Part shown: positions 48,026 through 61,916 of the stretch, in pieces | Layout of the letters: the number at the start of each line of letters is the position of its first letter | How positions within the stretch are numbered: position 1 is the stretch's first letter | From: Phycisphaeraceae bacterium | Lineage (GTDB): Bacteria; Planctomycetota; Phycisphaerae; Phycisphaerales; UBA1924 | Reading direction: 5' to 3' | Length of the DNA stretch: 64,000 nt | Assembly (NCBI GenBank): GCA_019636795.1 | Contig: JAHBWW010000006.1 | Span: 39,253 to 103,252, forward strand | Position numbers and translations under genes: made by a program | The notes under the pieces: generated by a model | Databases searched by the model: none | Told to the model about the DNA's origin: nothing | The model's input: only the letters and a program-made list of their open reading frames with translations

Positions 48026-48048
48026 AGCCGGAGAGAGTGGTCGGAGAA

Positions 48049-48070
48049 CCCAGGGATTGGGATCCCTGGG
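48049..48070. repeat. palindromic hairpin repeat, copy a
   Basis: CCCAGGGAT-tggg-ATCCCTGGG embedded in GAGAACCCAGGGATTGGGATCCCTGGGCTTGGGGG. Confidence 0.9.
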
Positions 48071-48226
48071 CTTGGGGGTCGGGTGGGTTTGGTGTTGGGC
48101 ATCATGGATGTTCATGATGGGCCTTGGGCGGCGTATTGCAAGGGGTTTTGGAGGTTGGGTCGGGAACTTGCGAGCGTGGGGGGATGGGGGGAGATTTTGG
48201 GGAGGTCGGGTTGAAGTCGGGGAAGG

Positions 48227-48289
48227 CACACCGACCGCTCAGAGCCGCGGTCGGTGGCACGGGGATCGACGGTTTTGGTTGGTGTCACC
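48227..48289 (+). repeat. REP-like element, copy 7
   Basis: CACACCGACCGCTCAGAGCCGCGGTCGGTGGCACGGGGATCGACGGTTTTGGTTGGTGTCACC. Its 3' end supplies the stop codon of the PPTase ORF. Confidence 0.9.
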
Positions 48290-49172
48290 AGCCGGAGAGA
48301 GTGGTCGGAGAACCCAGGGATTGGGATCCCTGGGCTTGGGGGAGTGTGGTTGGAGAACCCAGGGATTGGGATCCCTGGGCTTGGGGGTCGGTGGCATGGG
48401 GAGGGTGGATGGCGAGTGCGGCGGTGTGGGCAGGGTCGGCGGGATCGAGTGCGAGGTTGGTCAGGTGGATGGGTGCGGGGCTCTTGAGCGCGTTGGGGCT
48501 GGGGAGCGCGACGGTATTGCGGCTGGGCAGTGCGACGGCACCTGGGCTTGGGGGAATGACGGTATTGGGGCTGGGGAGCATGATGGTATCGGGGCGGGTG
48601 TCGATGGTTTGGGGGTTGGTGGCGAAGCCGGTGCCGAGGGCTTTGAGGAGGGCTTCTTTGCGGGTCCAGAGTTGGAAGAAGTGCTGCGGTTGTGCGGTGG
48701 GCGGGAGTGCGGCGTGGGCTGCGAGTTCGTCCGGGTGCATGAAGATGCGGGCGGCGTCGAGGGTTGCGTGGGCGGGGTCGATGTGGGCCAGGTCGATGCC
48801 GAGGCGGCGGTGCGGGGCGAGCGCGAGGGCGGCGATGTTGCCAGCGGACGCGGTCGAGAGGTGGATGTGTGTGAGGTGATGGGGGGCGGTGATGGTGGGG
48901 CAGCCTAGGGCGTCGTGGGTGATGCGGATGTCGGCGGGGGCGAGGTTGAAGGTGCGGGCGATGAATTGGGTGCGCCACCAGCGGCGGCAGATGAAGCGGG
49001 CGCGGTGAAGACCAGAGCGCAGCGATGCGGCGCGGGTTTGCTCGGCTGGGTCGAGGGTTGCGGCGAGGGCGTCGAGGGGTTCGCTTATGGTGTCGAGCGC
49101 GATCATGGCGGTCAGGACGCCATCGAAGGGCTCGGGCAGCGCGAGGGGCGAGGTGGAGAGTGCGAAGGTCAC
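48285..49172 (-). CDS. Sfp-type 4'-phosphopantetheinyl transferase (with repeat-encoded C-terminal tail)
   Basis: RRLGIDLAHI and FFQLWTRKEALLKALGTG, the PPTase motifs. Lies 30 nt downstream of the NRPS stop. GTG start at 49172 (alternative ATG 49106). Confidence 0.85.
   Translation of the reverse strand: MTFALSTSPLALPEPFDGVLTAMIALDTISEPLDALAATLDPAEQTRAASLRSGLHRARFICRRWWRTQFIARTFNLAPADIRITHDALGCPTITAPHHLTHIHLSTASAGNIAALALAPHRRLGIDLAHIDPAHATLDAARIFMHPDELAAHAALPPTAQPQHFFQLWTRKEALLKALGTGFATNPQTIDTRPDTIMLPSPNTVIPPSPGAVALPSRNTVALPSPNALKSPAPIHLTNLALDPADPAHTAALAIHPPHATDPQAQGSQSLGSPTTLPQAQGSQSLGSPTTLSGW
48313..48334. repeat. palindromic hairpin repeat, copy b
   Basis: CCCAGGGAT-tggg-ATCCCTGGG. Confidence 0.9.
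48358..48379. repeat. palindromic hairpin repeat, copy c
   Basis: CCCAGGGAT-tggg-ATCCCTGGG. Confidence 0.9.
48498..48617. repeat. imperfect 24-bp tandem repeat x5 inside the PPTase ORF tail
   Basis: Units GCTGGGGAGCGCGACGGTATTGCG / GCTGGGCAGTGCGACGGCACCTGG / GCTTGGGGGAATGACGGTATTGGG / GCTGGGGAGCATGATGGTATCGGG / GCGGGTGTCGATGGTTTGGGGGTT. Confidence 0.7.
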
Positions 49173-49202
49173 GGGGGGATTGTTGGCGCGCGGGGGTTGG
49201 CT

Positions 49203-52200
49203 TCAGGTTGAGGAGGAGGTGTGAATGGGGGCGGGGGTGAGGATGCGGTCGAGTTCGCGTGCCAGGACGCCGGCGGAGCGCGGGCTAAAGAAGTTGAGAT
49301 GGTCGCAGGGGAGTGGATGGACGTTGAGCTCGCCGCGGGCGAAGTTTTCCCAGCCGAGGGCGTGGAGGTCTTTGTATTCGTCTTCCTGATGCTGGGCGCG
49401 GAGGAGGGAGATGGGTCCGGCCCAGGGGCGGGGGCGGTATTTGAAGTAGGCGGAGAGGTTGGCGAAGCGCACTGGCCAGGGGCGGAGGCGGCGCGGGATG
49501 GGGAGGTTGAAGCGTGCGCAGAGTTTGTAGGCGTTGCGTTCGACGGGGCCGATCCAGAGCGTTCGGAGGAAGTGGCGCGGGCCGGAGCGGAGTTGATAGA
49601 TGAAGCGTTTGCGGAGGGTGCGCTGGAGCGAGCGACCGGCGGCCTGTCGGAGGACTCGGGTGTCGATCATGATGATGCGTTCGACGGGCTGATCGAGTTG
49701 TGTGAGGCGGTGGGCGATTTCGAGTGCGATGGCGCCGCCGAGGGAGTAGCCGCCGAGGATGTAGGGGCCTTGCGGTTGGATGGTGCGGATGGCGTCGAGG
49801 TAATGATCGGCCATGTCTTCGATGGTGGTCAGCGGGGTTGCGTCGCCGTGGACACCGCGTGCCATGATGCCGTAGAGGGGCTGATCGGGGGAGAGGCCGG
49901 GGAGAAGGCGTTCGAGGAAGAGGACGTTGCCGTCCATGCCGTGGATGCAGAAGAAGGGGATGCGTGAGCCGGTGGTGCGGAAGGGGGCGATGACGGAGGT
50001 GTCGTGTGGGGATTGATTGCCTTCGATGAGGTCGCGCAGGGCGGCGGGGGTGGAGGCGCGGAGGAGGGCGGCGAGGGGGATGGTCTTTTTGAACTCGGCT
50101 TCGATGCGTGCGACGAGTTTGACGGCGAGGAGGGAGTGGCCGCCGAGGTCGAAGAAGGATTGAGCAGGGCCGACGGCGGGGAGGGCGAGGAGGGATTGGA
50201 AGATTTCGCAGATGCGGCGTGTGGTGGGATCGGTGATGGGCTCGGTGGTGATGATGTTGGTGGGGTCGGGGAGGGCGGTGCGGTTGAGTTTGCCGTTGGG
50301 GGTGCGCGGGAGGTGATCGAGGGGGATGAGTGCGGCGGGGAGCATGTAGTCGGGGAGGCGGCCTTTGAGGAAGCGGCGGATTTCGGGCGTGTGGTCGGTG
50401 GGCTCGGTGCTGCCGTTGGCTGGGACGAAGTAGGCGTGGAGTGCGGTGCCGGTGTGGGTGTTGCGCGCGATGACGGCGGCTTCGAGGACGGCGGGGTGCA
50501 TGCTGATGGTGTGTTCGACTTCGCCGAGTTCGACGCGGAAGCCTCGGATTTTGGTCTGGTTGTCGGCGCGGCCGAGGTATTCGAGGTTGCCTTGGTCGTT
50601 CCAGCGTGCGAGGTCGCCGGTGTTGAAGAGGGTTGATGCGTTGAGTTCGGGGATGGGGATGGGGTTGGGGTTGGGGAGGAAGCGTTCGGCGGTGAGGTCG
50701 GGGCGGTTGTGGTAGCCATCGGCGAGGCATGGTCCGGCGACGTGGATGATGCCGGGGACGTTGGGGGGGGTTGGGTGGAGGCGATGATCGAGGAGGGCGA
50801 TTTTGACGTTGGAGATGGGGCGGCCGATGGGAATGACACCGGCGTCGATGTCGGCGGAGGTGACGACGTGTGCGGTGGCGTCGGCGGCGATTTCGGATGA
50901 GCCGTAGAGGTTGATGAGTTCGACGTGCGGGAGTGCGGCGAGGAAGCGCTGGGCGCGGTTCCAGGAGAGTGCTTCGCCGCTGGAGACGCAGATGCGGAGG
51001 TGCGGGAGGTGTTTGTGGAGGTCTGGGTGTGTGTCGAGGATGGCTTCGAGGAGTGCGGGGACGACGGTGATGCGTGAGATTTTGTTTTTGCGGAGTGCGG
51101 CGACGAGTGCGCGTGGGTCTTTGACGGTTTGGTGTGGGAGGATGTTGATGGGGACGCCGGCGAGGAGTGGACCGAAGGCTTCCCAGACGTGATCGACGAA
51201 GTTGATGGTGGTCTGCCAGGAGGTGGTTTCGTTTGGTTGGAAGGGTCGCCAGTTCCACATCCATCGGAAGCGGTTGATGGCGCCGGCGTGTGTGCCGCGG
51301 ACGCCTTTGGGGAGGCCCGTGGAGCCGGAGGTGTAGGTGATGTAGGCGACGGTTGCGTCGGGCGATGGGAGGGGGGCGTTGGAGGGTTTGATGGTGGCGA
51401 TGTTGATGACGGTTGCGAGGCTGGGAGGGAGAACGGCGGCGGTGTCGGCGGTTGCGAGGACGAATGGGGGTGCGGCGTCGCGGAGGATGTGTTCGAGGCG
51501 TGCTGCGGGGTAGGTGGGATCGAGTGGGACGTAGCAGCAGTTGGCGCGGAGGACGCCGAGGAGGGCGGTGGGGAGCTGGAGCGATGGTTCGATGCAGACT
51601 GCGATGGGGGTGTTGGGCGAGACGCCGAGGGAGATGAGGTGGGCGGCGACTGCGGCGCTCTGGCGGTCGAGGGCGGCGTAGGTGAGCGAGGAGGAGTTGT
51701 ATCGGTATGCGGTGGCGTTTGGGGTTTTGCGGGCTTGCTCGGCGAAGAGGCTTTGGATGGTGGCGGGAGGGTTTGAGGCGATGGTTTGATTGGGGAGCGT
51801 GATGAGGCGAAGGCGATCGGCGTCGTCGGTGATTTCGATTGCGTCGATGGAGAGGGCCGGATCGGCGGCGAGGCGGCGCATGGTGCGCAGGGTGTCATCG
51901 AGGAGTTGGCGGACGAGTGCGGGATCGACGGCTGCGGTGTCGAATCGGGCTTCGATGTCGAATGTTTTCCATGGGGTGACCATGAGGGTGAGGGGGACGT
52001 CGGTCCAGCCGAAGGATTTTGGGGATTCGATGGAGATTGGTGATGCGCGGCCGGAGCGTGCGTCGTCGAGGGGGTAGTTGCCGAAGACGACGATGGAGTT
52101 GAAGAGTGGGGTGCGTGGTGGGAAGTGTGCGCAGCGGTGGATGTCGGAGAGGGGGGTTTGTTCGAAGCGGGTGGAGTCGGAGATTTGTTTCTGGATTGAG

Positions 52201-53156
52201 GAGAGGAAGTCGGCGATGGTTGTGTTGCGGGGGATCTGGGCGCGGACGGGTGCGGCGTTCATGAGGAGGCCGACGATGCGTTCGATGTCTGGGGTGTCGA
52301 GTGAGCGGCCTGAGAAGGTGGTGCCGAAGATGATGTCGTCGTTGCGTGTGTAGCGGCTGAGGACGAGGGTCCATGCGGCGAGCATGAGTGTGCTGAGGGT
52401 GAAGCGATTTTCGCGTGCGAACTGCCTGATGTGTGTGTAGTCGGAGTCGGGGAGAGTTGCGGGGATGACGGTGGGTTGTCTGGAGCGTCCGGGGATGTCG
52501 TGGTCGGGGCGAGAGGCGGGGAGTGGAGTGGGGGTATCGAGGCCGGCGAGGAGAGCGGTCCAGTAGCGCTCGGCATCGGAAGCGGGGAAGCGGGCCAGAG
52601 CGGCGAGGGCGCTTTGGAATGAAGCGGGGGGAGGGAGATCGGGAGCGTGGTTCTGGGTGAGTGCGTGGTAGGTTGCGTGGACGTCGGCGAGGATGATGGA
52701 GACGGACCATGCGTCGATGAGGATGTGGTGGAATGACCAGATGACGCGGTGGAGGTTGTGTTCGAGACGCGCGAGGGCGAAGCGCATGAGTGGGGGGCGG
52801 GTGAGTTTGAAGAGTGTGGCGCGATCGCGCGCGAGATAGTCGTCGAGTGGTGGCGCGTCGGGGGTGGACCAGTCGAGGTTGGTCCAGGGGAGGTTGACGT
52901 GCTTGCGGATGATCTGGAGGGGGCGGTCGTCTTTTTGCCAGATGAATTGTGCGCGGAGGGCGGGGCAGCGGGCGATGACGGATTCCCATGCGCGCTGATA
53001 TGCGGCGGGATCGATGGGGCCACGGATGAGGAAGGTGAATTGCTCGAAGTATGCGATGGAGTCCGGGGCGTGAGCGATTTCGAGCAGCGTGAACTGCTGC
53101 ATTGGAGTCAGAGGGAGGATGTCCTGAACGTTTTCAAGTGCTGGGCGGTCACTCAT
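49203..53156 (-). CDS. non-ribosomal peptide synthetase, terminal module C-A-T-TE (1317 aa)
   Basis: ATG 53156 overlaps the upstream NRPS stop by 8 nt (GATGAGTGA). C domain: LPLTPMQQ, SFHHILIDAWS. A domain: AYITYTSGSTGLPKGV, NLYGSSE, NTGDLARW, GRADNQTKIRGFRVELGEVE, PNGKLNR. T domain: FFDLGGHSLLAV. TE domain: GYSLGGAIALE. Confidence 0.95.
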   Translation of the reverse strand: MSDRPALENVQDILPLTPMQQFTLLEIAHAPDSIAYFEQFTFLIRGPIDPAAYQRAWESVIARCPALRAQFIWQKDDRPLQIIRKHVNLPWTNLDWSTPDAPPLDDYLARDRATLFKLTRPPLMRFALARLEHNLHRVIWSFHHILIDAWSVSIILADVHATYHALTQNHAPDLPPPASFQSALAALARFPASDAERYWTALLAGLDTPTPLPASRPDHDIPGRSRQPTVIPATLPDSDYTHIRQFARENRFTLSTLMLAAWTLVLSRYTRNDDIIFGTTFSGRSLDTPDIERIVGLLMNAAPVRAQIPRNTTIADFLSSIQKQISDSTRFEQTPLSDIHRCAHFPPRTPLFNSIVVFGNYPLDDARSGRASPISIESPKSFGWTDVPLTLMVTPWKTFDIEARFDTAAVDPALVRQLLDDTLRTMRRLAADPALSIDAIEITDDADRLRLITLPNQTIASNPPATIQSLFAEQARKTPNATAYRYNSSSLTYAALDRQSAAVAAHLISLGVSPNTPIAVCIEPSLQLPTALLGVLRANCCYVPLDPTYPAARLEHILRDAAPPFVLATADTAAVLPPSLATVINIATIKPSNAPLPSPDATVAYITYTSGSTGLPKGVRGTHAGAINRFRWMWNWRPFQPNETTSWQTTINFVDHVWEAFGPLLAGVPINILPHQTVKDPRALVAALRKNKISRITVVPALLEAILDTHPDLHKHLPHLRICVSSGEALSWNRAQRFLAALPHVELINLYGSSEIAADATAHVVTSADIDAGVIPIGRPISNVKIALLDHRLHPTPPNVPGIIHVAGPCLADGYHNRPDLTAERFLPNPNPIPIPELNASTLFNTGDLARWNDQGNLEYLGRADNQTKIRGFRVELGEVEHTISMHPAVLEAAVIARNTHTGTALHAYFVPANGSTEPTDHTPEIRRFLKGRLPDYMLPAALIPLDHLPRTPNGKLNRTALPDPTNIITTEPITDPTTRRICEIFQSLLALPAVGPAQSFFDLGGHSLLAVKLVARIEAEFKKTIPLAALLRASTPAALRDLIEGNQSPHDTSVIAPFRTTGSRIPFFCIHGMDGNVLFLERLLPGLSPDQPLYGIMARGVHGDATPLTTIEDMADHYLDAIRTIQPQGPYILGGYSLGGAIALEIAHRLTQLDQPVERIIMIDTRVLRQAAGRSLQRTLRKRFIYQLRSGPRHFLRTLWIGPVERNAYKLCARFNLPIPRRLRPWPVRFANLSAYFKYRPRPWAGPISLLRAQHQEDEYKDLHALGWENFARGELNVHPLPCDHLNFFSPRSAGVLARELDRILTPAPIHTSSST

Positions 53157-56100
53157 CCGTGAACTCGCTTGCGTCGAAGAGTGCGGACAGACGTGCGAGG
53201 CCTTCATCGTCGAGGCCTGCGAGGGGGAAGGCGCTGGCTGCTGCGGGAGCGGTGTTTGATGCTGCTGCGGCGTCGCGGATGATGTGGGCGATTGCGGTAG
53301 AGAAGTTTGCAGCGAGCGACTGGATCGTGGATTCGTTGTGGAGCGCGGAGCTTGCGATCCAGTCGATGCGGAGTACGTCATCGACGATCATGGCGTCGAC
53401 TTCGATGATGGCTGGGCGTGTGTTTGAAGGGTGGCGTGTTGGGCCACAGGAAGTGCGTGCGATGCGGAGGCTCCAGCCCTGGGAGAGGGATTGATCGAAT
53501 TGTCCAAGGTAGTTGAATGAGAGTGCGGCGGGCGCGGCCTGGCGGATAGCGCTCCCGAGATCGGTGGTATCCCATGAGCGTGCGAGGCCGAAACCGATGC
53601 CGCGTGCAGGGATCTGTCGGAGGTGTTCGCGTGCAGCGTTGATTGCGGAGGCGGGGTTGGTCATTGTGTGAAGTGGGAGGGCGACGGGGAAGAGGGTGGT
53701 GAACCAGCCGACGGTGCGTGAGACGTCGAGATCGTCGGAGATTGCTTCGCGGCCATGGCCCATCATGTCGATGCGAAGGGTGTCGCGGCTGACCCATTGG
53801 CGGAGGGTGATGCCGAGTGCTGCGAGGAGAATGTCGTTGATCTGTGCGTGATATGAGGCTGGGACATCGTGGAGGAGTGCGCGCGTTGCGGCGGGGTCGA
53901 TGATGGTGGTGTGGACGATGGCGGATGCTTCGGTGTTGTCGGCTGCGGGGTGATCGAGGGGGATCTGCGGTGAGGCGGCGAGTTCGCGCATCCACCATTC
54001 GCGCTGTTGCGGCGAAGCGGAGATTGAGGGTGTGTGTTGCTCGAGCGCGTGTGCCCAGTCGCGGAGGGAGTGGGTCTTTTGTGGGAGGGAGGGGGACTGG
54101 CCCTGCGAGATGTGTTCGCAGGCGAGCATGAGGTCTTCGATGATGAGGCGCCAGGAGAAGCCATCGAGGACGAGGTGATGTGCTGCCATGAGGAGGCGTG
54201 CGGAGCCGCCGTTGCGTTCGCGGAAGAGGACTGCGCCGAAGAGGGGGCCTTGTGCGAGATTGAAACCTGTCTGGAGGGTGGTGCCGTGGCGTTCGACGGA
54301 GGCATCGGCGGCGGGGGTGGAGAATTGATCGACGAGCGCGGTGTGGAATGCGAGATTGGTTGCGTCGGGGGTGTCGAAGTGCTGGGTCCAGGTCTGATCG
54401 TTTCGTTGGTAACGGAGGCGCAGGGCATCGTGATGATTGACGACGGCGAGCAGTGCGCGTCGGAAGGTGAGGTCGTCGATGCGTGAGGGGACTTCGAGCA
54501 TTATGGCTGCGTTCCAGTGCGATGGCTGGGCGAGGTTCTGATCGAGGAGCCACTGCTGGATTGGAATGAGCGGGGAGTGTCCGGTGACGGGGCCCTGATG
54601 TGCGGTGAGTGCTGCGGCTTGTCGAGCGTGCGGGGCGAGGAGTGCGATTGTTGGATGATCGAAGAGTTGGTTTGGGGTGATGAGGATGCCGTGGCGGCGT
54701 GCGCGTGCGCAGATCTGAATGCTGAGGATGGAGTCGCCACCGATTTCGAAGAAGTTGTCGTTGAGTGCGACGGAGTCGAGGCGGAGGACTTGAGCCCAGA
54801 CGGCGGCGAGGGTTGACTCGAGATCGGTCGCGTGCTCGGCGGCAGAGCGATCGGCGGCGGATGCGGCGGCGCGCGAGGGGGCAGGGAGTGCGCGGCGGTC
54901 GAGTTTGCCGTTGGAGGTGACGGGGAGCGAGTCGAGGGTGACGAAGGCTGCGGGGACCATGTATTCGGGGAGTGTGCGCGCGAGTGCGGCGCGGAGGGTT
55001 GCGTGATCGGCGCTACCGACGATGTATGCGACGATGCGTGGGCTGGCGGGGATGTCTTCGCGTGCGATGACGACGGCGTGCTGGACGTTGGGCTGGTGAG
55101 CGATTGCGTGTTGGATTTCGCCGAGTTCGATGCGGAAGCCTCGGATCTTGACCTGATCGTCGAGTCGGCCGAGGTATTCGATGGATCCATCGTTGAGGAA
55201 GCGTGCGAGGTCGCCGGTTTTGTAGAGTTTTTCGGCAGGGCGGAATGGGTGCTGGATGAAGCGTTCGGCGGTGAGTTCTGGTCGGTTGACGTATCCGATG
55301 CCGACCTGGATGCCTCCGATGTAGAGCTCGCCGGGAGTGCCGATGGGGGCGAGTTCGAGGCGTGGATCGAGGACGAGCAAGTGGGTGTTTGCGATGGGGA
55401 AGCCGATGGGGATGATGTTTCGTGGGTCGCGTGGGGCGCATTCCCATGCGGTGACATCGACTGCGGCCTCGGTTGGGCCATAGAGGTTTGCGAGGCGTAC
55501 AGCGGGGAGGATGGTGAAGAATCGCTGAACGAGATCGAATGGGAGGGCTTCGCCGGAGCAGACGACGCGGCGGAGGGAGGTGATGCGTGGGAGGGTTGGT
55601 TCTTCGAGGAATGCGCGGAGCATGGAGGGGACGAAGTGCATGACGGAGACGTTGTGGTGCTGGATGATGTGTGCGAGGTATGCGGTGTCGCGGTGACCTT
55701 CTGGTTTTGCGACGACGATTGCGGCGCCGGTGATGAGTGGCCAGAAGAACTCCCAGACGGAGACGTCGAAACTGAAGGGAGTTTTCTGAAGGACGCGATC
55801 GCTGGGGGTGAGTTGGTATTCGTCCTGCATCCAGAGGAGGCGGTTGATGATGGCGCGGTGGGCGTTGAGTGCGGCTTTGGGGCGGCCGGTGGAGCCTGAG
55901 GTGAAGATGGCGTATGCGGGGTCGTCGGGAGTTGCGGTGGAGGCGGGGGGGGTTGAGGGGGAAGTTGCGAGCGACGGATCGTCGAGGAAGAGAGTTGGTC
56001 CTTGCCAGTTGAGGGTGGCGAGTTGGGCGGAGGAGGATGGAAGCGTGGGGTCGGATGCGGAGGTGATGAAGGCGGCGAGGGCGGCGTCGTCGATCATGTT

Positions 56101-59100
56101 GGCGAGGCGCTCGGGGGGATAGGTTGGATCGAGGGGGACGTATGCGGCGCCTGCGCGCATGACGCCGAGGAGGGCGGCGACGAGCTCGGTGCTGCGCTGG
56201 AGGCAGACTCCGACGAGGGAGTGTGGTTTGACGCCGAGGGCGAGAAGTCGGTGTGCGATGCGGTTTGCGTTGGCGTCGAGTTGTGCGTAGGTGGTGGTCT
56301 GGTCGCTGAAGATGACGGCTGGTGCGTGAGGGGTTGCGGCTGCCTGTTGTGCGATGAGTTGATCGAGGGTGAGGTTTTGTGGATAGGGTCGTGCGGGGCC
56401 TGCGAAGTCATCGAGGAGTTGTCGTTTTTCGCTTTTTGGGAGCATGGCTGCGGGGGAGGCGGGCTGGTGAGGGTCGGCGGCGATGGCGCGGAGTGCGGCG
56501 AGGTAGTATCGGCCGATCTGCTTGACCTGATCGCGGGTCATGTGTTTGTTGTTGTAGTTGAGGACGACATCAAGGCGTTTGTCGTATGCGTCGACGCGGA
56601 AGTTTGCGACGAGGACGTAGTGGAATGGGTCGGTGAAATCGACGCGGAGGAACTCGATATCGTCGCGTCCGGCGAGGCGGTCGTAGACGTGGAAATGTGT
56701 GTAGTTGAAACCGGTTTCGAAGAGGTTGTCCTGACCTGCGCGGCCGAGATCGCGGAGGAGTTGTGCGCCGATGTATCGGCGGTGTGGGAGTGCGGCGAGT
56801 TCGGCGTGGTGTGCTGATTGTGCGAGTTCGAACCAAGTCTGGTCGGCGACGTGGAGGCGGTAGGGCATGGTGTTGAGGTGGTTGCCGAGGGAGGAGTCGC
56901 CGCCCGGGTCTTCGATGCGGCCGTTCATGACGAGGCCTGTGACGACGTCGTCCTGATGAGCGAGCATGCCGAGGACGCGCGTGTGCGCGGCGAGGTAGAA
57001 GGACTTGAGCGGGATTGCGAGTTCGCGTGCGCGTTCGATGACGCGCTGGTTGACGTCGGCGGGGATGGGGACGATGAGGTCGAGATTGCGTGCGACGGGG
57101 ACATCGGCTCCGACGCCGGGGATGCGCGGGACTTGTGTGAAGGGGGCGTCGTCCATGAGTCCGGCCCAGAAAGTCTGGGCGTCGTGGGAGTTGAGGGTGG
57201 TGCGTTCGAGGGCGACGAAATCGCGGTATGTGATGGGGTTTGGTGTGAGATCGAGATCGGGGGCGCCGGCGAGCATGTTGACGTAGCGGGAGAAGATTTC
57301 GGTCATCATGTTCGACGTGCTCCAGCCGTCGAGGATTGCGTCGTGGAAGGTGATGCCGAACTGGAAGGTGTCGGGGGAGCGTTTGTGGACGGTGTATTTG
57401 AGGAGCGGGGGGCGAGACCAATCGAATTCGTATTCGGCTTCGTCGTCGATCCATCGGGCGAGGAGGGCTTGCTGCGATTCGGAGGGGAGGTGGGAGATAT
57501 CGTGGTATTCGATTGGGGCTGAGGCGGCAGCGTGTACGAGTTGCATTGGTTCGGCGAAGGTGCCGAGGTCGAAACTGGTGCGGAGGATGGGATTGCGTGC
57601 GACGACCTGATCGACGGCGCGCTGGAGGAGCGTGAGGTCGAGTCGTGCGCGGACATGGAGGCTCATGGCGACTTGATAGAGGTATGAGCCGATGGCGCGT
57701 TCGCTGTGAAAGACCATGCCGCTCTGGAGTGCGCTGAGGGGGTAGGCGTCGATGATGTCGGGGGGGAGTTTTGCGCGGTCGTTTGCGGAGATGAGTTGGA
57801 ATGGCTGGGTGCGCGTGGTGGCGGTGGATTGAGCAGTTGCAGCGGTTGAGGCGAGGGCGCGGACGGTGGGCGCGCGGAAGAGGTCGTGGACTGCGATATG
57901 GATGTCTGCGTCGGAGGCTTTTGCGACGATGCGGAGGGCGAGGATTGAGTCGCCGCCGATTTCGAAGAAGTTGTCGTCGATGGAGACACGCGGGAGGTTG
58001 AGGACCTGGGCCCAGATTTGTGCGAGTTGTGCTTCGGTGTCGGAGGTTGGGGCGACAAAGGGGCGATCGGAAGCGAAGGCGGAGCCGCGGGGCGGGGCGG
58101 GGAGTGCGCGGCGATCGAGTTTGCCATTTGCGGTGACGGGGAGAGCATCGAGGGTGACGAAGGCAGCGGGGACCATGTATTCGGGGAGGAGTTTTGCGAG
58201 TGCATCGCGGAGTGCGCTGTGGGTGGCGCTGCCGACGATGTATGCGACGAGGCGTTTGGTGCCTGGGACATCTTCGCGTGCGAGAACGACGGCTTCCTGA
58301 ACGTCGGGTTGGGCGGAGAGGACGAATTCGATTTCGCCAAGTTCGATGCGGAAGCCTCGGATCTTGACCTGGTCGTCGAGTCGGCCGAGGTATTCGATGG
58401 AGGCATCGGGGAGGAAGCGTCCGAGGTCTCCGGTTTTGTACATTTTCTCGCCGGGGCGGAATGGGTTCTGGATGAAGCGATCGGCGGTGAGTTCTGGTCG
58501 GTTGACGTAACCCATGCCGACCTGTATGCCTCCGATGAAGAGTTCGCCGGGGACGCCGGTTGGTGTTGGGGTCAGGTGATCGTCGAGTGCGTACATGAAG
58601 GTATTTGGGACGGCGCTGCCGATTGGGACGATGCCGCGTGGGTCGTTGGGGTGGCATTCCCATGCGGTGACATCGACGGCGGCCTCGGTTGGGCCATAGA
58701 GGTTGGCGAGGTGAGCGTTTGGGAGGCGCGAGAAGAATCGTTCGACGAGATCGAAGGGGAGTGCTTCGCCGGAGCAGACGACGCGGCGAATGGTGGTGCA
58801 ACTGGTGACGTTGCGCTCTTCGATGAAGACGCGGAGCATTGAGGGGACGAAGTGGAGGACAGTGACGGCGTGGTGTGCGATGAGGTCTACGAGGTAGGCG
58901 CTGTCGCGGTGGCCTTCGGGCTTGGCGACGACGATGGTGGCGCCGGTGATGAGTGGCCAGAAGAACTCCCAGACGGAGACGTCGAAGGAGTATGGTGTTT
59001 TCTGGAGGACGCGGTCGGTGGGGGTGAGTTGATAGTGCTCCTGCATCCACATGAGGCGGTTGATGATTGCGACATGTGCGTTGGCGGCGCCTTTTGGTTT

Positions 59101-61260
59101 GCCGGTGGAGCCGGAGGTGAAGATGACGTATGCGGGGTCGTGCTCAGTTGCGGGGCATGTGGGCGTGTGGGCGGGGTTAGCAGCGAGGGAGGGATCATCG
59201 ACGAAGAGGGTTTGGCCTTGCCAGTCGAGGGATTTGTAGAGGGGTGTGGTTGAGTGAGATGAGGGTGAGTTTTGTGACGTGACGAGGACGGCGAGGTGTG
59301 CGTCTTCGATCATGTTTTTGAGGCGTTCGATGGGGTATGAGGGGTCGAGGGGGACGTAGGCGCCGCCGCTCTTGATGACGGCGACGAGGGTTGCGACGAG
59401 TTCGGTGCTGCGTTCGAGGCAGACGCCGACGAGTGAGCCGGGCTTGACGCCCTGTGCGATGAGACGGTGTGCGATGCGGTTGGAGAGCGCGTCGAGTTGT
59501 GCGTAGGTGGTGATGGTGTCGTTGAAGATGACAGCGGGCGCATCGGGGTGCTGGGCGACCATGCGGGCGATGAGATCGGCCAGGGTGATGCCGCGTTCGT
59601 AGTTGCGTGTGGGTCCTGCGAAGGTTTCGAGGACACGGCGGCGTTCTGCGGGAGTCAGAATGGAGAGGCGTGAGCCGAGTTCGTGAGGAGCAGCGGAGGC
59701 CTGGGCGAGGAGTTGCTGAAATTGTGCGGCGATGTCGATGGCCTGATCGGTTGGGACGGCATCGGTGCGGAAGCGGAGGGAGCAGCCGGTGTCGGAGGGG
59801 AGGAGTGTGATGGCGGCGCGGCTGGAGGCGTGAGGGGTGAGTTCGATTGCGGCGTGCCAGAGATGGGTTGAGCGCAGTTCGGCGATATCGCGGAGGCGTG
59901 TGCTGCGTGCGAGCAGATCGCGGGCGTAGGTTGGGTGCTTTGCCAGGGTTTCGAGTTCGGCGGTGATGGCGTGTTGTATGGACTGGAAAGAGGTTTCGAG
60001 GTTGAGATCGACGCGCATCGGCGGATGAGTCTCGAAGAGTTGACCGGCGGGCGCGAGTGGGTTGGGTTGCGCGGGTGTGTGGAGCGGGAGGTCGAAACGC
60101 GTGTTGCGTGAGACGCGCGCGAGATAGATGGCGAAGGCGGCGATCTGCTGGGCGGCGGTGGAGCCGAGGGGGGTTGCGATGTCGAGTGTGCTTGTTTCGG
60201 CTGAGGGGTCGGGGTGGAGTGACTGGAGGCTGGAGATGAAGGGCGTCTGGATGGGCTGGACGTTGGCGAGGCGGTTGATCCACCAGTTTTCGGTGCGGTG
60301 TGCGGCGGAGTCGAGCGCGATGATGCGCTGAAGTTCGGCGGGGTCAAGAGGTGGGAGTTGGCGTGCGCATGCGAAGCGGGGCTCGGCGAGGTTTGCGGGT
60401 GAGCCATCAATTTCGCGCAGGCCGAGGAGGCGGATGTCGGATGAGCCTCCGGTGCTGACGCGGAGGGATGCGTCGGCGACGGAGATGATGGTTCCGGGTG
60501 CGGAGTTTGGTCCGGTGTCGGTTGGAGCGGCATTGGTGGCGAAGAGGAAGCGTGATCCGGTCCAGATGCGTGCGGTGCCGAGGCGGTTGTCGTATGGGCC
60601 GAAGTCGAGGGCGCGTACGAGGCGGAGGAGATCGGTTGCGGAGGCAGTCCAATCGAGGATGCCTGCGTGGGGCGGGCGATGGTGTCGGCCGAACCATGTG
60701 CGCTGCGATTCGGACTGTGGCGCGCGTGAGTGAGTCTGCGATTCGAGTTGTGTGAGGAGCGTGCGAAATGAGCGGAGGGCGGCTTCGTATGCTTTTGCGT
60801 TGAGGGTGAAGGCGGAGTCGGCGGCGGAGATGGGGAATGGTTCGGACGCGAGAATGTCGCCGAAGTCGACGCGGTCGGTCATGACGTGCCATGAGACGGC
60901 GTGCTCGGTTTCGCCGGCGAGAATTGCCCATGATGTGGCGTGAATGCCGGCGTAACGCGGGAGTGGTCCGTCGTGATAGTTGATGGCGAGGTGAGTTGGC
61001 CAGGTCAGGGCGGTTGATGGAAGGACGTCGTTGTTGACGATGCTCCAGAGGAGGTCGGGGGCTTGGGGGGTGAGGGAGATCAGGCCTGCGAAATCGGAGG
61101 CGAAGGGGATTGAGGCTGCGTGTGCCCATGTTGCGACGCGTGGATCGGGCGATGCGACAGCGACGACGGAGTGTCCGCGGCGGAGGAGTTCGTCGGCGCA
61201 CTGGATGAGGACACTGCCGGTGCCGATCAATGCACAGCGGAATCGAATCTGAGGATTCAC
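53149..61260 (-). CDS. non-ribosomal peptide synthetase: formyltransferase-like domain, C-like remnant, then A-T-C-A-T-E
   Basis: GTG 61260 lies 6 nt after AGGAG (the track GTG 61302 is also possible). Fmt-like: CALIGTGS, NYHDGPLPRYAGIHATSWAI, MTDRVDFGDIL. A1: AYVIFTSGSTGKPKGA. T1: FFEIGGDSILAL. C: YPLSALQSGMVFH, FHDAILDGWS. A2: AYAIFTSGSTGRPKAA. T2: FFEIGGDSILSI. E: AAHHLVLDGFSWRLI. Confidence 0.95.
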   Translation of the reverse strand: MNPQIRFRCALIGTGSVLIQCADELLRRGHSVVAVASPDPRVATWAHAASIPFASDFAGLISLTPQAPDLLWSIVNNDVLPSTALTWPTHLAINYHDGPLPRYAGIHATSWAILAGETEHAVSWHVMTDRVDFGDILASEPFPISAADSAFTLNAKAYEAALRSFRTLLTQLESQTHSRAPQSESQRTWFGRHHRPPHAGILDWTASATDLLRLVRALDFGPYDNRLGTARIWTGSRFLFATNAAPTDTGPNSAPGTIISVADASLRVSTGGSSDIRLLGLREIDGSPANLAEPRFACARQLPPLDPAELQRIIALDSAAHRTENWWINRLANVQPIQTPFISSLQSLHPDPSAETSTLDIATPLGSTAAQQIAAFAIYLARVSRNTRFDLPLHTPAQPNPLAPAGQLFETHPPMRVDLNLETSFQSIQHAITAELETLAKHPTYARDLLARSTRLRDIAELRSTHLWHAAIELTPHASSRAAITLLPSDTGCSLRFRTDAVPTDQAIDIAAQFQQLLAQASAAPHELGSRLSILTPAERRRVLETFAGPTRNYERGITLADLIARMVAQHPDAPAVIFNDTITTYAQLDALSNRIAHRLIAQGVKPGSLVGVCLERSTELVATLVAVIKSGGAYVPLDPSYPIERLKNMIEDAHLAVLVTSQNSPSSHSTTPLYKSLDWQGQTLFVDDPSLAANPAHTPTCPATEHDPAYVIFTSGSTGKPKGAANAHVAIINRLMWMQEHYQLTPTDRVLQKTPYSFDVSVWEFFWPLITGATIVVAKPEGHRDSAYLVDLIAHHAVTVLHFVPSMLRVFIEERNVTSCTTIRRVVCSGEALPFDLVERFFSRLPNAHLANLYGPTEAAVDVTAWECHPNDPRGIVPIGSAVPNTFMYALDDHLTPTPTGVPGELFIGGIQVGMGYVNRPELTADRFIQNPFRPGEKMYKTGDLGRFLPDASIEYLGRLDDQVKIRGFRIELGEIEFVLSAQPDVQEAVVLAREDVPGTKRLVAYIVGSATHSALRDALAKLLPEYMVPAAFVTLDALPVTANGKLDRRALPAPPRGSAFASDRPFVAPTSDTEAQLAQIWAQVLNLPRVSIDDNFFEIGGDSILALRIVAKASDADIHIAVHDLFRAPTVRALASTAATAQSTATTRTQPFQLISANDRAKLPPDIIDAYPLSALQSGMVFHSERAIGSYLYQVAMSLHVRARLDLTLLQRAVDQVVARNPILRTSFDLGTFAEPMQLVHAAASAPIEYHDISHLPSESQQALLARWIDDEAEYEFDWSRPPLLKYTVHKRSPDTFQFGITFHDAILDGWSTSNMMTEIFSRYVNMLAGAPDLDLTPNPITYRDFVALERTTLNSHDAQTFWAGLMDDAPFTQVPRIPGVGADVPVARNLDLIVPIPADVNQRVIERARELAIPLKSFYLAAHTRVLGMLAHQDDVVTGLVMNGRIEDPGGDSSLGNHLNTMPYRLHVADQTWFELAQSAHHAELAALPHRRYIGAQLLRDLGRAGQDNLFETGFNYTHFHVYDRLAGRDDIEFLRVDFTDPFHYVLVANFRVDAYDKRLDVVLNYNNKHMTRDQVKQIGRYYLAALRAIAADPHQPASPAAMLPKSEKRQLLDDFAGPARPYPQNLTLDQLIAQQAAATPHAPAVIFSDQTTTYAQLDANANRIAHRLLALGVKPHSLVGVCLQRSTELVAALLGVMRAGAAYVPLDPTYPPERLANMIDDAALAAFITSASDPTLPSSSAQLATLNWQGPTLFLDDPSLATSPSTPPASTATPDDPAYAIFTSGSTGRPKAALNAHRAIINRLLWMQDEYQLTPSDRVLQKTPFSFDVSVWEFFWPLITGAAIVVAKPEGHRDTAYLAHIIQHHNVSVMHFVPSMLRAFLEEPTLPRITSLRRVVCSGEALPFDLVQRFFTILPAVRLANLYGPTEAAVDVTAWECAPRDPRNIIPIGFPIANTHLLVLDPRLELAPIGTPGELYIGGIQVGIGYVNRPELTAERFIQHPFRPAEKLYKTGDLARFLNDGSIEYLGRLDDQVKIRGFRIELGEIQHAIAHQPNVQHAVVIAREDIPASPRIVAYIVGSADHATLRAALARTLPEYMVPAAFVTLDSLPVTSNGKLDRRALPAPSRAAASAADRSAAEHATDLESTLAAVWAQVLRLDSVALNDNFFEIGGDSILSIQICARARRHGILITPNQLFDHPTIALLAPHARQAAALTAHQGPVTGHSPLIPIQQWLLDQNLAQPSHWNAAIMLEVPSRIDDLTFRRALLAVVNHHDALRLRYQRNDQTWTQHFDTPDATNLAFHTALVDQFSTPAADASVERHGTTLQTGFNLAQGPLFGAVLFRERNGGSARLLMAAHHLVLDGFSWRLIIEDLMLACEHISQGQSPSLPQKTHSLRDWAHALEQHTPSISASPQQREWWMRELAASPQIPLDHPAADNTEASAIVHTTIIDPAATRALLHDVPASYHAQINDILLAALGITLRQWVSRDTLRIDMMGHGREAISDDLDVSRTVGWFTTLFPVALPLHTMTNPASAINAAREHLRQIPARGIGFGLARSWDTTDLGSAIRQAAPAALSFNYLGQFDQSLSQGWSLRIARTSCGPTRHPSNTRPAIIEVDAMIVDDVLRIDWIASSALHNESTIQSLAANFSTAIAHIIRDAAAASNTAPAAASAFPLAGLDDEGLARLSALFDASEFTDE

Positions 61261-61356
61261 AGAGCGCTCCTGCAAAGGGAATCGTGCACGCCGAGGGTGC
61301 ACGGCATGATGAGATTGGATCGGTAAGTCGGACGGAGAGGCGCGATCGGCGTGCGA

Positions 61357-61728
61357 TCAGCGGTTGTCGTAGCGGATGATTTCGTCGATTGTGTTGTCGG
61401 GCTTCATGAGGACGGCGCGGGGTTTGTGGAGGCGGTATTCGTCGTCGTTCATGAAAGCGTAGTGCATGATGATGACGACATCGCCTTTTGAGGCGAGGTG
61501 GCCTGCGGCACCGTTGATGATGATTTGTCGTGAGCCGGCTTCGCCGCGGAAGACATAGGTCTCGAAGCGTGAGCCGGTGTTGCAGTTGGCGATGACGACC
61601 TGGTCGTTTGGGCGCATGCCGCTGGCTTCGAGGAGGTCGGCGTCGATGGTGATGGAGCCGACGTAGTCGATGCGTGCTTCGGTGACGACGGCTCGGTGGA
61701 TTTTGGAGTGAAGGACTGCACGAAACAT
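61357..61728 (-). CDS. panD: aspartate 1-decarboxylase (pyruvoyl-dependent)
   Basis: MFRAVLHSKIHRAVVTEARIDYVGSITID (Gly-Ser self-processing site), NGAAGHL. First gene of the NRPS operon. Confidence 0.95.
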   Translation of the reverse strand: MFRAVLHSKIHRAVVTEARIDYVGSITIDADLLEASGMRPNDQVVIANCNTGSRFETYVFRGEAGSRQIIINGAAGHLASKGDVVIIMHYAFMNDDEYRLHKPRAVLMKPDNTIDEIIRYDNR

Positions 61729-61878
61729 GGAAAACTCCCCAGAAATGGTGTGGCAGCGATGGCGGCGCACGGACTTTTAAGTCGTAGCGTGCCTGTGATG
61801 TGGAACTCACGATATGGGATAACTGCTGGTTGGCTGATGATCTCTCTGGGCGCAATATACGAGCGTAAGGTACAGGAT

Positions 61879-61916
61879 TCAATAGAATTTGCGCCGGAAT
61901 TCAGGGGAAATTCACT
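61879..61916. promoter_or_regulatory. AT-rich motif cluster in the panD-NRPS upstream region (candidate operator)
   Basis: TCAATAGAATTT matches the feoA-upstream TCAATAGAGTTT at 11 of 12 positions. It is followed by GAATTT-gcgccg-GAATTC-agggg-AAATTC, which has dyad symmetry. Confidence 0.25.

What the first reader, a model, noticed from the sequence alone, without database searches (positions are those of the whole stretch)
48285..61728. Compact four-gene NRPS operon: panD, F-A-T-C-A-T-E, C-A-T-TE, Sfp-type PPTase
All four genes are on the minus strand with short gaps or overlaps. The panD stop is at 61357 and the NRPS1 start at 61260/61302. The NRPS1 stop and NRPS2 start overlap by 8 nt, and the gap to the PPTase is 30 nt. 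Domain motifs read directly from the translation give three modules: a loading module preceded by a formyltransferase-like domain, a second module followed by an epimerase, and a terminal module with a thioesterase. The simplest prediction is a small N-formyl tripeptide, formyl-X1, D-X2, X3, with X1 and X2 Ser-like and X3 a non-alpha amino acid. I recognise no matching characterised cluster, and a dedicated panD inside an NRPS operon is unusual. No MbtH-like gene, tailoring enzyme or exporter is visible next to it in the window.
Basis: partly seen in the sequence, partly recalled or inferred. Interest (0 to 1): 0.8.

Follow-up and report, generated by a model that had tools for sequence, protein, structure and literature searches.

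The report
Orphan formyl-tripeptide NRPS cassette, Phycisphaerae

Summary
Four co-directional minus-strand genes lie at the stated coordinates: panD, NRPS1 (F-A-T-C-A-T-E), NRPS2 (C-A-T-TE) and an Sfp-type PPTase. All domains match HMMs with catalytic motifs intact. The adenylation codes are DVWHVSLVDK twice (identical to a published L-Ser code) and VDWTVSLADK (7/10 identical to a published beta-Ala code).

The tools add three points.
1. The module-2 C domain is a CmodAA (dehydrating) type. Its closest solved relatives are McyA and AmbE. Its active site reads HDxxxDG instead of HHxxxDG, and this is invariant in all orthologues.
2. A vestigial C-terminal half of a C domain sits between F and A1.
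3. The cassette recurs in at least six other Phycisphaerae assemblies with unrelated flanks. One variant lacks A2 and the PPTase but keeps panD.

The best prediction is N-formyl-Dha-D-Ser-beta-Ala. An in-cluster PanD has a precedent (cahuitamycin CahF). I found no characterised homologous pathway. My verdict is a new member of a known kind (an orphan NRPS), of moderate interest. The conserved His-to-Asp change is the one feature that could hide unusual chemistry.

The parts
61357..61728 (-). panD, aspartate 1-decarboxylase (123 aa from the ATG at 61728; the longest ORF starts at a GTG at 61770)
   Evidence: PF02261 3.5e-43. TIGR00223 143.5 bits against a cut-off of 106. The YVGS self-cleavage site is conserved in five orthologues. 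A panD gene lies directly upstream of NRPS1 in L001, L002, L003, L005, L012 and L013.
53149..61260 (-). NRPS1, about 2703 aa: F, C-lobe remnant, A(Ser), T, CmodAA(HD), A(Ser), T, E
60373..61260 (-). Formyltransferase (F) domain with N- and C-terminal subdomains, ArnA/Fmt-like
   Evidence: PF00551 7.4e-15 and PF02911 7.2e-06. Nearest solved structures are the ArnA formyltransferase domain (8.2e-21) and Fmt (1.1e-16); the Asn-x-His ... Asp triad aligns with ArnA and is conserved in orthologues.
59677..60303 (-). Vestigial C-terminal lobe of a condensation domain between F and A1; it lacks the N lobe and any HHxxxDG motif
   Evidence: Local hhalign of 45 homologous segments against a C-domain alignment: 97.9 % probability, E 4.3e-13, matching template columns 188-430 of 430.
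58078..59577 (-). A1 adenylation domain, code DVWHVSLVDK (L-Ser)
   Evidence: Code read by alignment. It is identical to CahB-A1, L-Ser, in Suppl. Table 5 of PMC4757757.
57847..58029 (-). T1 carrier domain (GGDSI)
   Evidence: PF00550; motif position.
56461..57750 (-). Module-2 condensation domain of the CmodAA (dehydrating) clade. The catalytic motif FHDAILDG lies at 57325-57348, with the second His replaced by Asp.
   Evidence: Best PDB matches are McyA 8jbr (2.8e-100) and AmbE 7r9x (2e-62); the next, McyB, scores 1.5e-31. KSFYLAAH and HRRY motifs are present. HD is invariant in five orthologues and in P0059, P0112 and P0114.
54886..56358 (-). A2 adenylation domain, code DVWHVSLVDK (L-Ser)
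   Evidence: A1 and A2 are 71 % identical in this genome and 98 % identical in L005.
54634..54822 (-). T2 carrier domain (GGDSI)
53260..54582 (-). Epimerisation domain (HHLVLDG, FNYLGQ)
   Evidence: PF00668 best stretch 2241-2681. PDB matches to the E domains of PvdL, TycA and GrsA. Motif conserved.
49203..53156 (-). NRPS2, 1317 aa: DCL condensation, A(beta-Ala), T, TE
51810..53129 (-). DCL-type condensation domain (HHILIDAWS)
   Evidence: Best PDB matches are C domains that follow E domains: McyB 1.7e-73, PvdL 4e-71, SrfA-C 2.4e-51, TycB 4.7e-50. LCL domains score far lower: TycC 1.4e-19, LgrA 1e-9.
50289..51746 (-). A3 adenylation domain, code VDWTVSLADK (beta-Ala type; the conserved Asp is shifted to the second code position)
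   Evidence: CahD-A is IDVTISLADK, beta-Ala, 7 of 10 identical. Orthologues read VDW(T/V)VSLADK.
50028..50219 (-). T3 carrier domain (GGHSL)
49284..49955 (-). Type I thioesterase (GYSLGG, IMIDT, CDH)
   Evidence: PF00975 2.5e-24. The triad positions are conserved in four orthologues.
48285..49172 (-). Sfp-type 4'-phosphopantetheinyl transferase. The core is about 200 aa. The last roughly 100 codons are a repeat-derived extension absent from orthologues.
   Evidence: PF01648 3.8e-15. HetI is the best NCBIfam hit at 1.1e-22 but lies below the equivalog cut-off. The alignment shows the WxRKEAxxKAxGTG core and the extension. Tandem repeats lie at 48297-48387 and 48493-48595.
61854..61882 (-). Candidate sigma-70-like promoter (TTGAAT-17-TATATT) about 125 nt upstream of the panD ATG
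   Evidence: Weak evidence: 2 sites found against 1.5 expected in shuffles.

Best explanation
This is a self-contained NRPS cassette for a small N-formylated tripeptide. The steps below are inferred from sequence unless marked otherwise.

1. PanD decarboxylates L-aspartate to beta-alanine.
2. The Sfp-type PPTase primes the three carrier domains.
3. A1 loads L-Ser on T1, and the ArnA/Fmt-like F domain formylates its amine from N10-formyl-tetrahydrofolate.
4. The CmodAA-type C domain dehydrates formyl-Ser-S-T1 to formyl-dehydroalanyl-S-T1 and joins it to L-Ser on T2. The formyl cap is what makes an N-terminal Dha stable, as an enamide.
5. The E domain epimerises the T2-bound seryl residue.
6. 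The DCL domain of NRPS2 joins formyl-Dha-D-Ser to beta-Ala on T3.
7. The TE releases the chain, most simply by hydrolysis.

The predicted product is N-formyl-Dha-D-Ser-beta-Ala, C10H15N3O6, [M+H]+ 274.103. Shown here: gene and domain content, catalytic motifs, specificity codes, C-domain subtypes, and conservation of the cassette. Inferred: every chemical step, the timing of dehydration, the release mode and co-transcription.
For: - Domain HMMs and motifs.
- C-domain subtype: McyA and AmbE are by far the best solved relatives. The CmodAA signature motifs [K/R]SxxLAAH and RR at C6, described in PMC11342130, are present. The donor module is Ser, as for characterised dehydrating C domains that act on an N-acylated Ser thioester before condensation (review PMC10880069).
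- E domain followed by a DCL domain.
- Codes: DVWHVSLVDK is the published L-Ser code. VDWTVSLADK is close to the published beta-Ala code IDVTISLADK, in a cluster that also carries a PanD.
- Conservation: the cassette is found in L002, L003, L005, L011, L012 and L013, with partial copies in L001 and L004. Flanks are unrelated between genomes.
- Selection: dN is 0.10-0.50 with saturated dS, which indicates purifying selection.
- The L012/L013 variant lacks A2, so a single Ser-specific A domain must serve both T1 and T2. This fits Ser at both positions.
Against: - The catalytic motif of the dehydrating/condensing domain reads HDxxxDG. The second His is usually considered essential for condensation. 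In the only characterised CmodAA domains that lack it (BlmVI-C2 and relatives), the reaction is conjugate addition, not amide formation.
- No HD-type domain has been characterised in what I found.
- No product, transcript or activity data exist.
- Co-transcription is inferred only from spacing. A 7-bp stem-loop sits between panD and NRPS1, but terminator-like hits are not enriched over shuffles.
- The TE release mode is unknown.
- F-domain activity is inferred from conserved residues only.
Confidence: 0.58

Rival explanations
1. The module-2 C domain only condenses, and the product is N-formyl-L-Ser-D-Ser-beta-Ala with no dehydration.
For: The HD substitution shows that this domain is not a typical CmodAA. 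Clade membership does not prove dehydratase activity. All other steps are the same as in the best explanation.
Against: The domain is far closer to McyA and AmbE (1e-100, 1e-62) than to any plain C domain (1e-31 or weaker). It keeps the clade-specific KSxxLAAH and RR motifs. Its donor is Ser, the substrate that these domains dehydrate.
Confidence: 0.2
2. The HD-type domain performs non-canonical chemistry. One option is condensation plus cyclodehydration of the acceptor Ser to an oxazoline, which is isobaric with the Dha product. Another is aza- or oxa-Michael addition onto Dha, as in bleomycin, or beta-lactam closure, as in nocardicin. In any of these cases the scaffold is not a plain peptide.
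For: - The second His is replaced by Asp in every orthologue.
- Acidic replacement of this His is rare: 10 of 328 C-domain matches.
- Outside Phycisphaerae it occurs at junctions with a Ser or Thr donor. The acceptor A code there is xTADDK in 4 of 9 such domains, against 6 of 174 for HH- and xH-type domains.
- The best single-domain PDB match of that acceptor A domain is the last A domain of PvdL. From memory, that domain activates Dab.
- Acceptors with a nucleophilic side chain (Dab-like, or Ser here) therefore seem to go with the acidic variant.
- CmodAA domains that lack the second His in bleomycin-type pathways do conjugate addition.
Against: - The evidence is purely correlative and rests on a handful of lineages.
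- The Dab assignment could not be confirmed in the literature.
- The first His is retained, unlike in BlmVI-C2.
- The downstream E, DCL and TE domains are ordinary and fit a normal peptidyl intermediate.
- No amidotransferase or other helper is present to release a doubly tethered adduct.
Confidence: 0.12
3. The cassette is decaying or inactive, with a dead C domain. Alternatively, panD is simply the housekeeping gene that happens to lie next to the NRPS.
For: The catalytic His is missing. The PPTase ORF in this genome has a repeat-derived tail, and a RAYT transposase lies 1 kb away. The copy number of panD in the genome cannot be seen from one window.
Against: - The ORFs of about 2,700 and 1,320 codons are intact in at least five genomes at 49-71 % protein identity, with dN well below dS.
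- Every other catalytic motif is intact.
- panD travels with the NRPS into at least five different genomic contexts, and it is retained even in the variant that lost A2 and the PPTase.
Confidence: 0.05

Closest known systems
Linear gramicidin synthetase LgrA (F-A-T-C-A-T-E)
   Same: NRPS1 has the same domain order, and LgrA is its best overall PDB match (5.8e-270 over A-T-C-A-T). Both start with an N-terminal formylation step on the first carrier-bound amino acid.
   Different: The F domain here is ArnA/Fmt-like, with a Formyl_trans_C subdomain plus a vestigial C-lobe. LgrA's F domain is not detected at E <= 0.01. The LgrA C domain scores far lower than McyA/AmbE against the module-2 C domain here, which is CmodAA-type. 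The substrates also differ: Ser and Ser here, against Val and Gly in LgrA (LgrA substrates from my own knowledge).
Kolossin A synthetase of Photorhabdus (one of only three F-domain NRPs listed in PMC8949500)
   Same: The 550-residue F plus C-lobe unit is 32 % identical over 96 % of its length to the N terminus of a giant Photorhabdus khanii NRPS (P0025). Both have an initiating F domain.
   Different: I did not show that P0025 is the kolossin synthetase. Kolossin is a pentadecapeptide, and no CmodAA, panD or beta-Ala is known there.
Dehydrating CmodAA condensation domains (McyA module 2, AmbE-C2, AlbB-C2/C3, Crz1-C2)
   Same: These are the best sequence relatives. The clade motifs are present, the donor is Ser, and the donor needs an N-acyl group: a fatty acyl in corallorazine, formyl here.
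   Different: The catalytic motif is HDxxxDG, not HHxxxDG. None of the 50 domains analysed in PMC11342130 is described with this pattern.
Cahuitamycin cluster (CahB-A1 Ser, CahD beta-Ala module, CahF PanD)
   Same: It has an identical Ser code, a closely similar beta-Ala code, beta-Ala as the C-terminal residue, and an in-cluster aspartate 1-decarboxylase.
   Different: Cahuitamycin is a salicylate/hydroxamate siderophore from Streptomyces. It has MbtH and a trans-acting hydrolase, and it has no F domain in cis, no CmodAA and no TE on the last module.
Bleomycin-family BlmVI-C2 / nocardicin NocB-C5
   Same: These are C domains that use a seryl donor, form Dha, and then do something other than plain amide formation. 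BlmVI-C2 lacks the second His.
   Different: BlmVI-C2 lacks both His residues (Phe plus Gly/Ala). NocB-C5 belongs to the DCL clade and has HHHxxxDG (the HHH motif is from my own knowledge). I made no direct sequence comparison with either.

Membership tests
Modular (type I, linear) NRPS | A, T, C and TE domains in module order, with their core motifs | tested here: met
   Pfam matches for all domains. GGDSI, GGDSI and GGHSL carrier serines. NGKxDR A10 lysines, GYSLGG/D/H in the TE, HHLVLDG in E and HHILIDAWS in the NRPS2 C domain. One exception is the module-2 C domain, listed separately.
NRPS formylation (F) domain | Formyltransferase fold with the Asn-x-His ... Asp catalytic triad, placed N-terminal to the first A domain | tested here: met
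   PF00551 and PF02911. INYHDGPLPRYAG and RVDFGD align with the ArnA catalytic residues and are conserved in orthologues.
NRPS formylation (F) domain | Sequence relationship to the structurally characterised LgrA F domain | tested here: not met
   A PDB search with residues 1-310 returns ArnA, Fmt, sugar N-formyltransferases and PurN, but no LgrA chain at E <= 0.01. This is a different lineage of F domain, which works like LgrA-F but is not of that subfamily.
NRPS formylation (F) domain | N10-formyl-THF-dependent formylation of aminoacyl-S-T | not testable with these tools
   This needs an enzyme assay or the product structure.
CmodAA / dehydrating condensation domain | Clusters with McyA, AmbE and similar domains rather than with LCL, DCL or E domains | tested here: met
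   McyA 2.8e-100 and AmbE 2e-62, against 1.5e-31 or weaker for others. Database homologues are annotated McyA-like.
CmodAA / dehydrating condensation domain | [K/R]SVLLAAH-like motif before C5, and Arg(-Arg) at the start of C6 (PMC11342130) | tested here: met
   KSFYLAAH and PHRRY, conserved in orthologues.
CmodAA / dehydrating condensation domain | Ser or Thr as the donor residue, N-acylated | tested here: met
   The A1 code is that of Ser, and the F domain is upstream.
CmodAA / dehydrating condensation domain | Intact HHxxxDG, as in the characterised dehydrating members | tested here: not met
   FHDAILDG in the window and in all orthologues.
CmodAA / dehydrating condensation domain | Dehydration of the donor Ser to Dha | not testable with these tools
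   This needs the product mass, thiol trapping or in vitro reconstitution.
E domain followed by a DCL domain | E-type HHxxxDG and FNYLGQ motifs, and a downstream C domain that groups with C domains following E domains | tested here: met
beta-Alanine-activating A domain | Specificity code close to known beta-Ala codes, with the conserved Asp shifted from the first to the second code position | tested here: met
   VDWTVSLADK against CahD IDVTISLADK, 7 of 10 identical and 2 conservative. Activation was not assayed.
PanD (pyruvoyl aspartate 1-decarboxylase) | Equivalog HMM above its cut-off, and a Gly-Ser self-processing site | tested here: met
   TIGR00223 143.5 bits against 106. YVGS is conserved. 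The substrate (Asp, or a substituted Asp as for CrpG) was not tested.
Sfp-type PPTase | ACPS superfamily domain, two-lobed protein of about 230 aa, W/FxxKEAxxK motif | tested here: inconclusive
   PF01648 3.8e-15. HetI, AcpT and AusB are the best NCBIfam hits, but all lie below their equivalog cut-offs. The WTRKEALLKALGTGF motif is present. Sfp type is likely; the exact subfamily is not assigned.
Operon (single transcript) | Co-transcription of the four genes | not testable with these tools
   The only evidence is spacing (96 nt, -8 nt, 30 nt), conserved order in at least four genomes and one weak promoter match.

The most novel reading that the evidence does not exclude
The conserved His-to-Asp change marks a so far uncharacterised functional subclass of CmodAA-clade condensation domains. 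This subclass would use the nucleophilic side chain of the acceptor residue: Ser here, and a probable Dab in Xenorhabdus vietnamensis and two metagenomic NRPSs. It would build a heterocycle (an oxazoline or tetrahydropyrimidine) or a side-chain adduct on Dha, instead of or in addition to a plain peptide bond. The Phycisphaerae product would then be a formylated heterocyclic or otherwise non-linear scaffold, not a simple tripeptide.
Probability: 0.12. Interest if true: 0.75.

Novelty: new member of a known kind. Interest (0 to 1): 0.45.

Why it matters
Phycisphaerae (Planctomycetota) are almost untouched as a source of natural products. This cassette is small (13.5 kb, four genes, self-sufficient in precursor supply and carrier priming), is conserved across several species, and is therefore an easy target for synthesis and heterologous expression. 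NRPS-embedded F domains were linked to only three known peptides in a 2022 review (PMC8949500). Here an F domain is paired with a dehydrating C domain, which suggests a minimal way to make a stable N-terminal dehydroalanine electrophile. The invariant HDxxxDG motif offers a natural experiment on the role of the 'catalytic' second histidine of condensation domains. None of this changes the category: it is an orphan NRPS made of known parts.

Tried and rejected
- Literature searches for panD plus a formylating NRPS found no matching pathway. The only useful returns were precedents for in-cluster aspartate decarboxylases.
- Full-text searches for candidate beta-Ala codes that I recalled (VDWVISLADK and others) and for the DIWExTADDK code found nothing. 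The beta-Ala comparison therefore rests on the cahuitamycin supplement. The Dab assignment rests on my memory plus similarity to PvdL.
- The kineochelin paper that matched 'panD' was a false hit on an author's name.
- The only non-Phycisphaerae HD domain in the first homologue search (Fischerella, P0091) proved to be a fragment among broken genes and is uninformative.
- Promoter and terminator scans are not enriched over shuffles.
- Rfam finds no riboswitch upstream of panD.
- There is no MbtH motif in six frames.
- Minus-strand ORFs flanking the cassette (61945-63888, 46246-48229) have no family hits and the composition of antisense frames. I rejected them as genes, with one exception: the RAYT at 46583-47320.
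- A replication-origin reading of the GC-skew switch was tested with DnaA boxes and is not supported.
- A siderophore reading was considered and rejected. There are no hydroxamate, catechol or heterocycle-forming parts and no TonB or ABC uptake genes next to the cassette in the window.
- I did not run a structure prediction. Sequence matches at 1e-100 made it unnecessary for domain assignment.
Full report
OBSERVATION

The four ORFs exist as described, all on the minus strand.
- panD is the ORF 61357-61770. The sensible start is the ATG at 61728, preceded by GGGGAG.
- NRPS1 is 53149-61302. The GTG at 61260, preceded by AGGAG, matches where the orthologues start.
- NRPS2 starts at the ATG at 53156, which overlaps the NRPS1 stop by 8 nt. 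Its stop codon is at 49203-49205.
- The PPTase is 48285-49172, 30 nt downstream of NRPS2.

Pfam finds Asp_decarbox (3.5e-43). It finds Formyl_trans_N/C, two AMP-binding, two PP-binding and two Condensation matches in NRPS1. It finds Condensation, AMP-binding, PP-binding and Thioesterase in NRPS2, and ACPS in the last gene. NCBIfam names panD above its equivalog cut-off. It puts the PPTase nearest HetI/AcpT-type (Sfp-type) enzymes, though below their cut-offs.

ANATOMY OF NRPS1

The N-terminal 300 residues are an ArnA/Fmt-like formyltransferase with both subdomains. The Asn-x-His ... Asp triad is intact (INYHDGPLPRYAG, RVDFGD). The nearest solved structures are ArnA (8e-21) and Fmt (1e-16). The LgrA F domain is not detected at E <= 0.01, so this is another lineage of F domain.

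Between F and A1 lie about 210 residues that a profile-profile comparison aligns to the C-terminal half of a condensation domain (97.9 %, E 4e-13). This is a vestigial C lobe without a catalytic motif. The 550-residue F plus C-lobe unit is widespread. It starts NRPSs in Gemmatimonadota, Acidobacteriota, rhizobia and Photorhabdus khanii, and it is a stand-alone protein inside a Burkholderia NRPS cluster. A 2022 review counts only three peptides known to be formylated by an F domain: gramicidin, anabaenopeptilide and kolossin A (PMC8949500).

SPECIFICITIES

I read the ten-residue codes by alignment.
- A1 and A2 both read DVWHVSLVDK. This is letter for letter the code of CahB-A1, assigned to L-Ser in the cahuitamycin paper.
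- A3 reads VDWTVSLADK. CahD-A reads IDVTISLADK and is assigned to beta-Ala (PMC4757757, Suppl. Table 5).

That cluster also contains CahF, a PanD. A dedicated aspartate decarboxylase beside a terminal beta-Ala module therefore has a bacterial precedent.

THE KEY CORRECTION: THE MODULE-2 C DOMAIN

The module-2 C domain is not an ordinary LCL domain. Its best solved relatives are the McyA module-2 C domain (8jbr, 2.8e-100) and AmbE-C (7r9x, 2e-62). The next hit scores 1.5e-31. It carries the KSxxLAAH and Arg-Arg motifs that PMC11342130 describes as specific to the CmodAA clade.

Characterised members dehydrate an N-acylated seryl or threonyl thioester before condensation (PMC10880069). With a Ser donor and a formyl cap, the logical intermediate is formyl-Dha-S-T1. 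An N-terminal Dha is only stable when acylated, which gives the F domain a rationale.

The E domain (HHLVLDG, FNYLGQ) and the first domain of NRPS2 fit a D-configured second residue. That NRPS2 domain groups with C domains that follow E domains: McyB, PvdL, SrfA-C and TycB score 1e-73 to 1e-50, against LCL domains at 1e-19 or weaker. The TE has its Ser/Asp/His positions.

Predicted product: N-formyl-Dha-D-Ser-beta-Ala.

THE ODD FEATURE: HD IN PLACE OF HH

The catalytic motif of this C domain is FHDAILDG, so the second His is Asp. The motif is identical in every orthologue, at 59-71 % overall protein identity.

I searched 1.8 billion representative proteins and took the 150 best. These yielded 328 C-domain matches.
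- 224 have HH.
- About 90 vary the first His.
- Only 6 have HD: three from Phycisphaerae, plus three others, including Xenorhabdus vietnamensis WP_086110560.1.
- 4 have Ser-Glu or Tyr-Glu.

Domains with an acidic second residue have Ser or Thr donors. In 4 of 9 the acceptor code is xTADDK, against 6 of 174 for the other types. The best single-domain PDB match of that acceptor A domain is the last A domain of PvdL. I recall that domain as Dab-specific but could not confirm this. The pattern is a lead, not a result. It suggests that the acidic variant goes with acceptors that have a nucleophilic side chain.

In bleomycin-type CmodAA domains that lack the second His, the reaction is conjugate addition. 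I therefore keep a 12 % rival: the domain makes something other than a plain Dha-Ser amide, for example an isobaric oxazoline.

CONSERVATION

The genome and metagenome scans returned only Phycisphaerae assemblies.
- L002, L003 and L005 carry the same four genes in the same order, with the same 8-nt NRPS1/NRPS2 overlap in L002.
- L011 is 92 % identical in DNA to window 56086-63998.
- L001 has panD plus the start of NRPS1.
- Flanking genes are unrelated between genomes: DUF4331/TPR; glutamine synthetase III, a hydrolase and DnaE; a kinase-WD40 protein and PurD; CusF-like and YceI. The cassette, including panD, is therefore the unit that is inherited or moved.
- L012 and L013 hold a variant whose NRPS1 lacks A2 (F, C-lobe, A, T, CmodAA(HD), T, E) and which has no PPTase, but which keeps panD. 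One Ser-specific A domain must then load both carriers. This independently supports Ser at both positions.
- A1 and A2 are 63-98 % identical within genomes, about as similar as orthologues are between genomes. This indicates repeated homogenisation.
- dN is 0.10-0.50 with saturated dS, so the genes are under purifying selection. The cassette is not a wreck.

SURROUNDINGS IN THE WINDOW

Upstream, and divergent from panD, is a 629-aa ORF with no family match. It is conserved in L011. Downstream lie tandem repeats, a REP-associated tyrosine transposase (46583-47320, 89 bits against a cut-off of 80) and a DUF2961 gene. The last roughly 100 codons of the PPTase ORF are built from two of those repeats and are absent from orthologues. 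There is no MbtH, exporter, tailoring enzyme or riboswitch.

COMPARISON WITH KNOWN SYSTEMS AND NOVELTY

The domain order equals that of LgrA, but the F and C domains are of other subtypes. The C domain is a CmodAA member by three of four sequence criteria and fails the fourth (HH). The beta-Ala/PanD pairing mirrors cahuitamycin. I found no characterised pathway with this combination, but I could not run antiSMASH/MIBiG.

Verdict: a real, intact, conserved orphan NRPS. It is a new member of a known kind, with one conserved active-site peculiarity worth an experiment.

Scores:
- Interest: 0.45.
- Confidence in the formyl-Dha-D-Ser-beta-Ala model: 0.58.
- Confidence that it is a functional formyl-(Ser-derived)-(Ser-derived)-beta-Ala assembly line of some kind: about 0.85.

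Noticed in passing
window 1-64000 (switch at about 36000-44000): The strand compositional asymmetry is extreme. Plus-strand GC skew is about -0.25 to -0.39 over 1-36 kb and +0.35 to +0.48 over 45-64 kb. It belongs to the DNA strand, not the coding strand. GC3 skew is -0.70 to -0.84 for the minus-strand NRPS genes but +0.71 for the adjacent plus-strand ORF 62107-63996. The orthologous NRPS1 genes in L002, L003, L005 and L012 show only -0.28 to +0.10. The sign change would conventionally mark a replication origin, yet nearly all genes on both sides would then be head-on, and DnaA boxes do not cluster. This is unexplained and may be more unusual than the NRPS itself.
   Followed up: partly
window 36000-44000: A skew-neutral block sits at the switch. 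It holds two tRNAs (36280-36353 minus, 38333-38407 plus), an Rce1-like protease gene, a small HTH/antitoxin-like gene (39074-39364), McrC (39808-41049) and McrB (41006-42868), and a PEP-mutase/ICL-family gene at 70 % GC (42796-43746). It looks like an acquired island.
   Followed up: partly
window 46583-47320 (-), 47726-47869, 48297-48387, 48493-48595: A REP-associated tyrosine transposase (RAYT) gene lies 1 kb downstream of the cassette, with three tandem-repeat arrays (21 bp x 6.9, 45 bp x 2, 24 bp x 4.3). Two of the arrays lie inside the 3' end of the PPTase ORF and give it a roughly 100-aa tail that orthologues lack.
   Followed up: partly
window 62107-63996 (+); L011 3741-5630 (-): A 629-aa ORF, divergent from panD, has normal protein-like composition but no Pfam or NCBIfam match. 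It is conserved at the same position in the 92 %-identical relative L011 and is not part of the cassette in other genomes.
   Followed up: partly
L012 6283-12873, L013 4048-10638: A natural variant of the cassette has an NRPS1 without the second A domain (module 2 is C-T-E) and has no PPTase gene, but panD and NRPS2 are intact. This implies that one A domain serves two carrier domains.
   Followed up: yes
NRPS1 A1 (window 58078-59577) and A2 (54886-56358); L005: The two Ser adenylation domains evolve in concert. They are 98 % identical to each other in L005 and 63-77 % elsewhere, similar to the identity between orthologues. The A1 region of L011 also aligns to the window's A2 region at 79 % DNA identity.
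   Followed up: yes
P0117, P0251, P0218 (Xenorhabdus vietnamensis WP_086110560.1), P0242: Other NRPSs have CmodAA-like domains whose second catalytic His is Asp or Glu. In these, the domain sits between a Ser or Thr module and a module with an A code of the form DIWExTADDK or DIYNMTADDK, which is PvdL-like and possibly Dab. This combination is almost absent for HH-type domains (4 of 9 against 6 of 174).
   Followed up: partly
L006/L007 10001-11674 (Burkholderia), L008 10001-12184 (Photorhabdus khanii): The F plus vestigial C-lobe unit occurs as a stand-alone 557-aa protein inside a Burkholderia NRPS cluster that also has TauD and a luciferase-like insert in an A domain. It also forms the N terminus of a giant Photorhabdus NRPS.
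   Followed up: no
L002 19459-21420; L012 2975-3466: Copper-related neighbours lie next to the cassette in two relatives: a CopC/Big_5 protein in L002 and a weak CusF-like match in L012/L013. The window has nothing comparable, so this may be coincidence.
   Followed up: no
window 16946-21892: Long plus-strand ORFs overlap by 230-270 nt: 16946-19495 (ResB-like), 19225-21252 (cytochrome c assembly CcsA-like) and 21023-21892. These could be true overlaps, mis-set start codons or frameshifts in the assembly.
   Followed up: no
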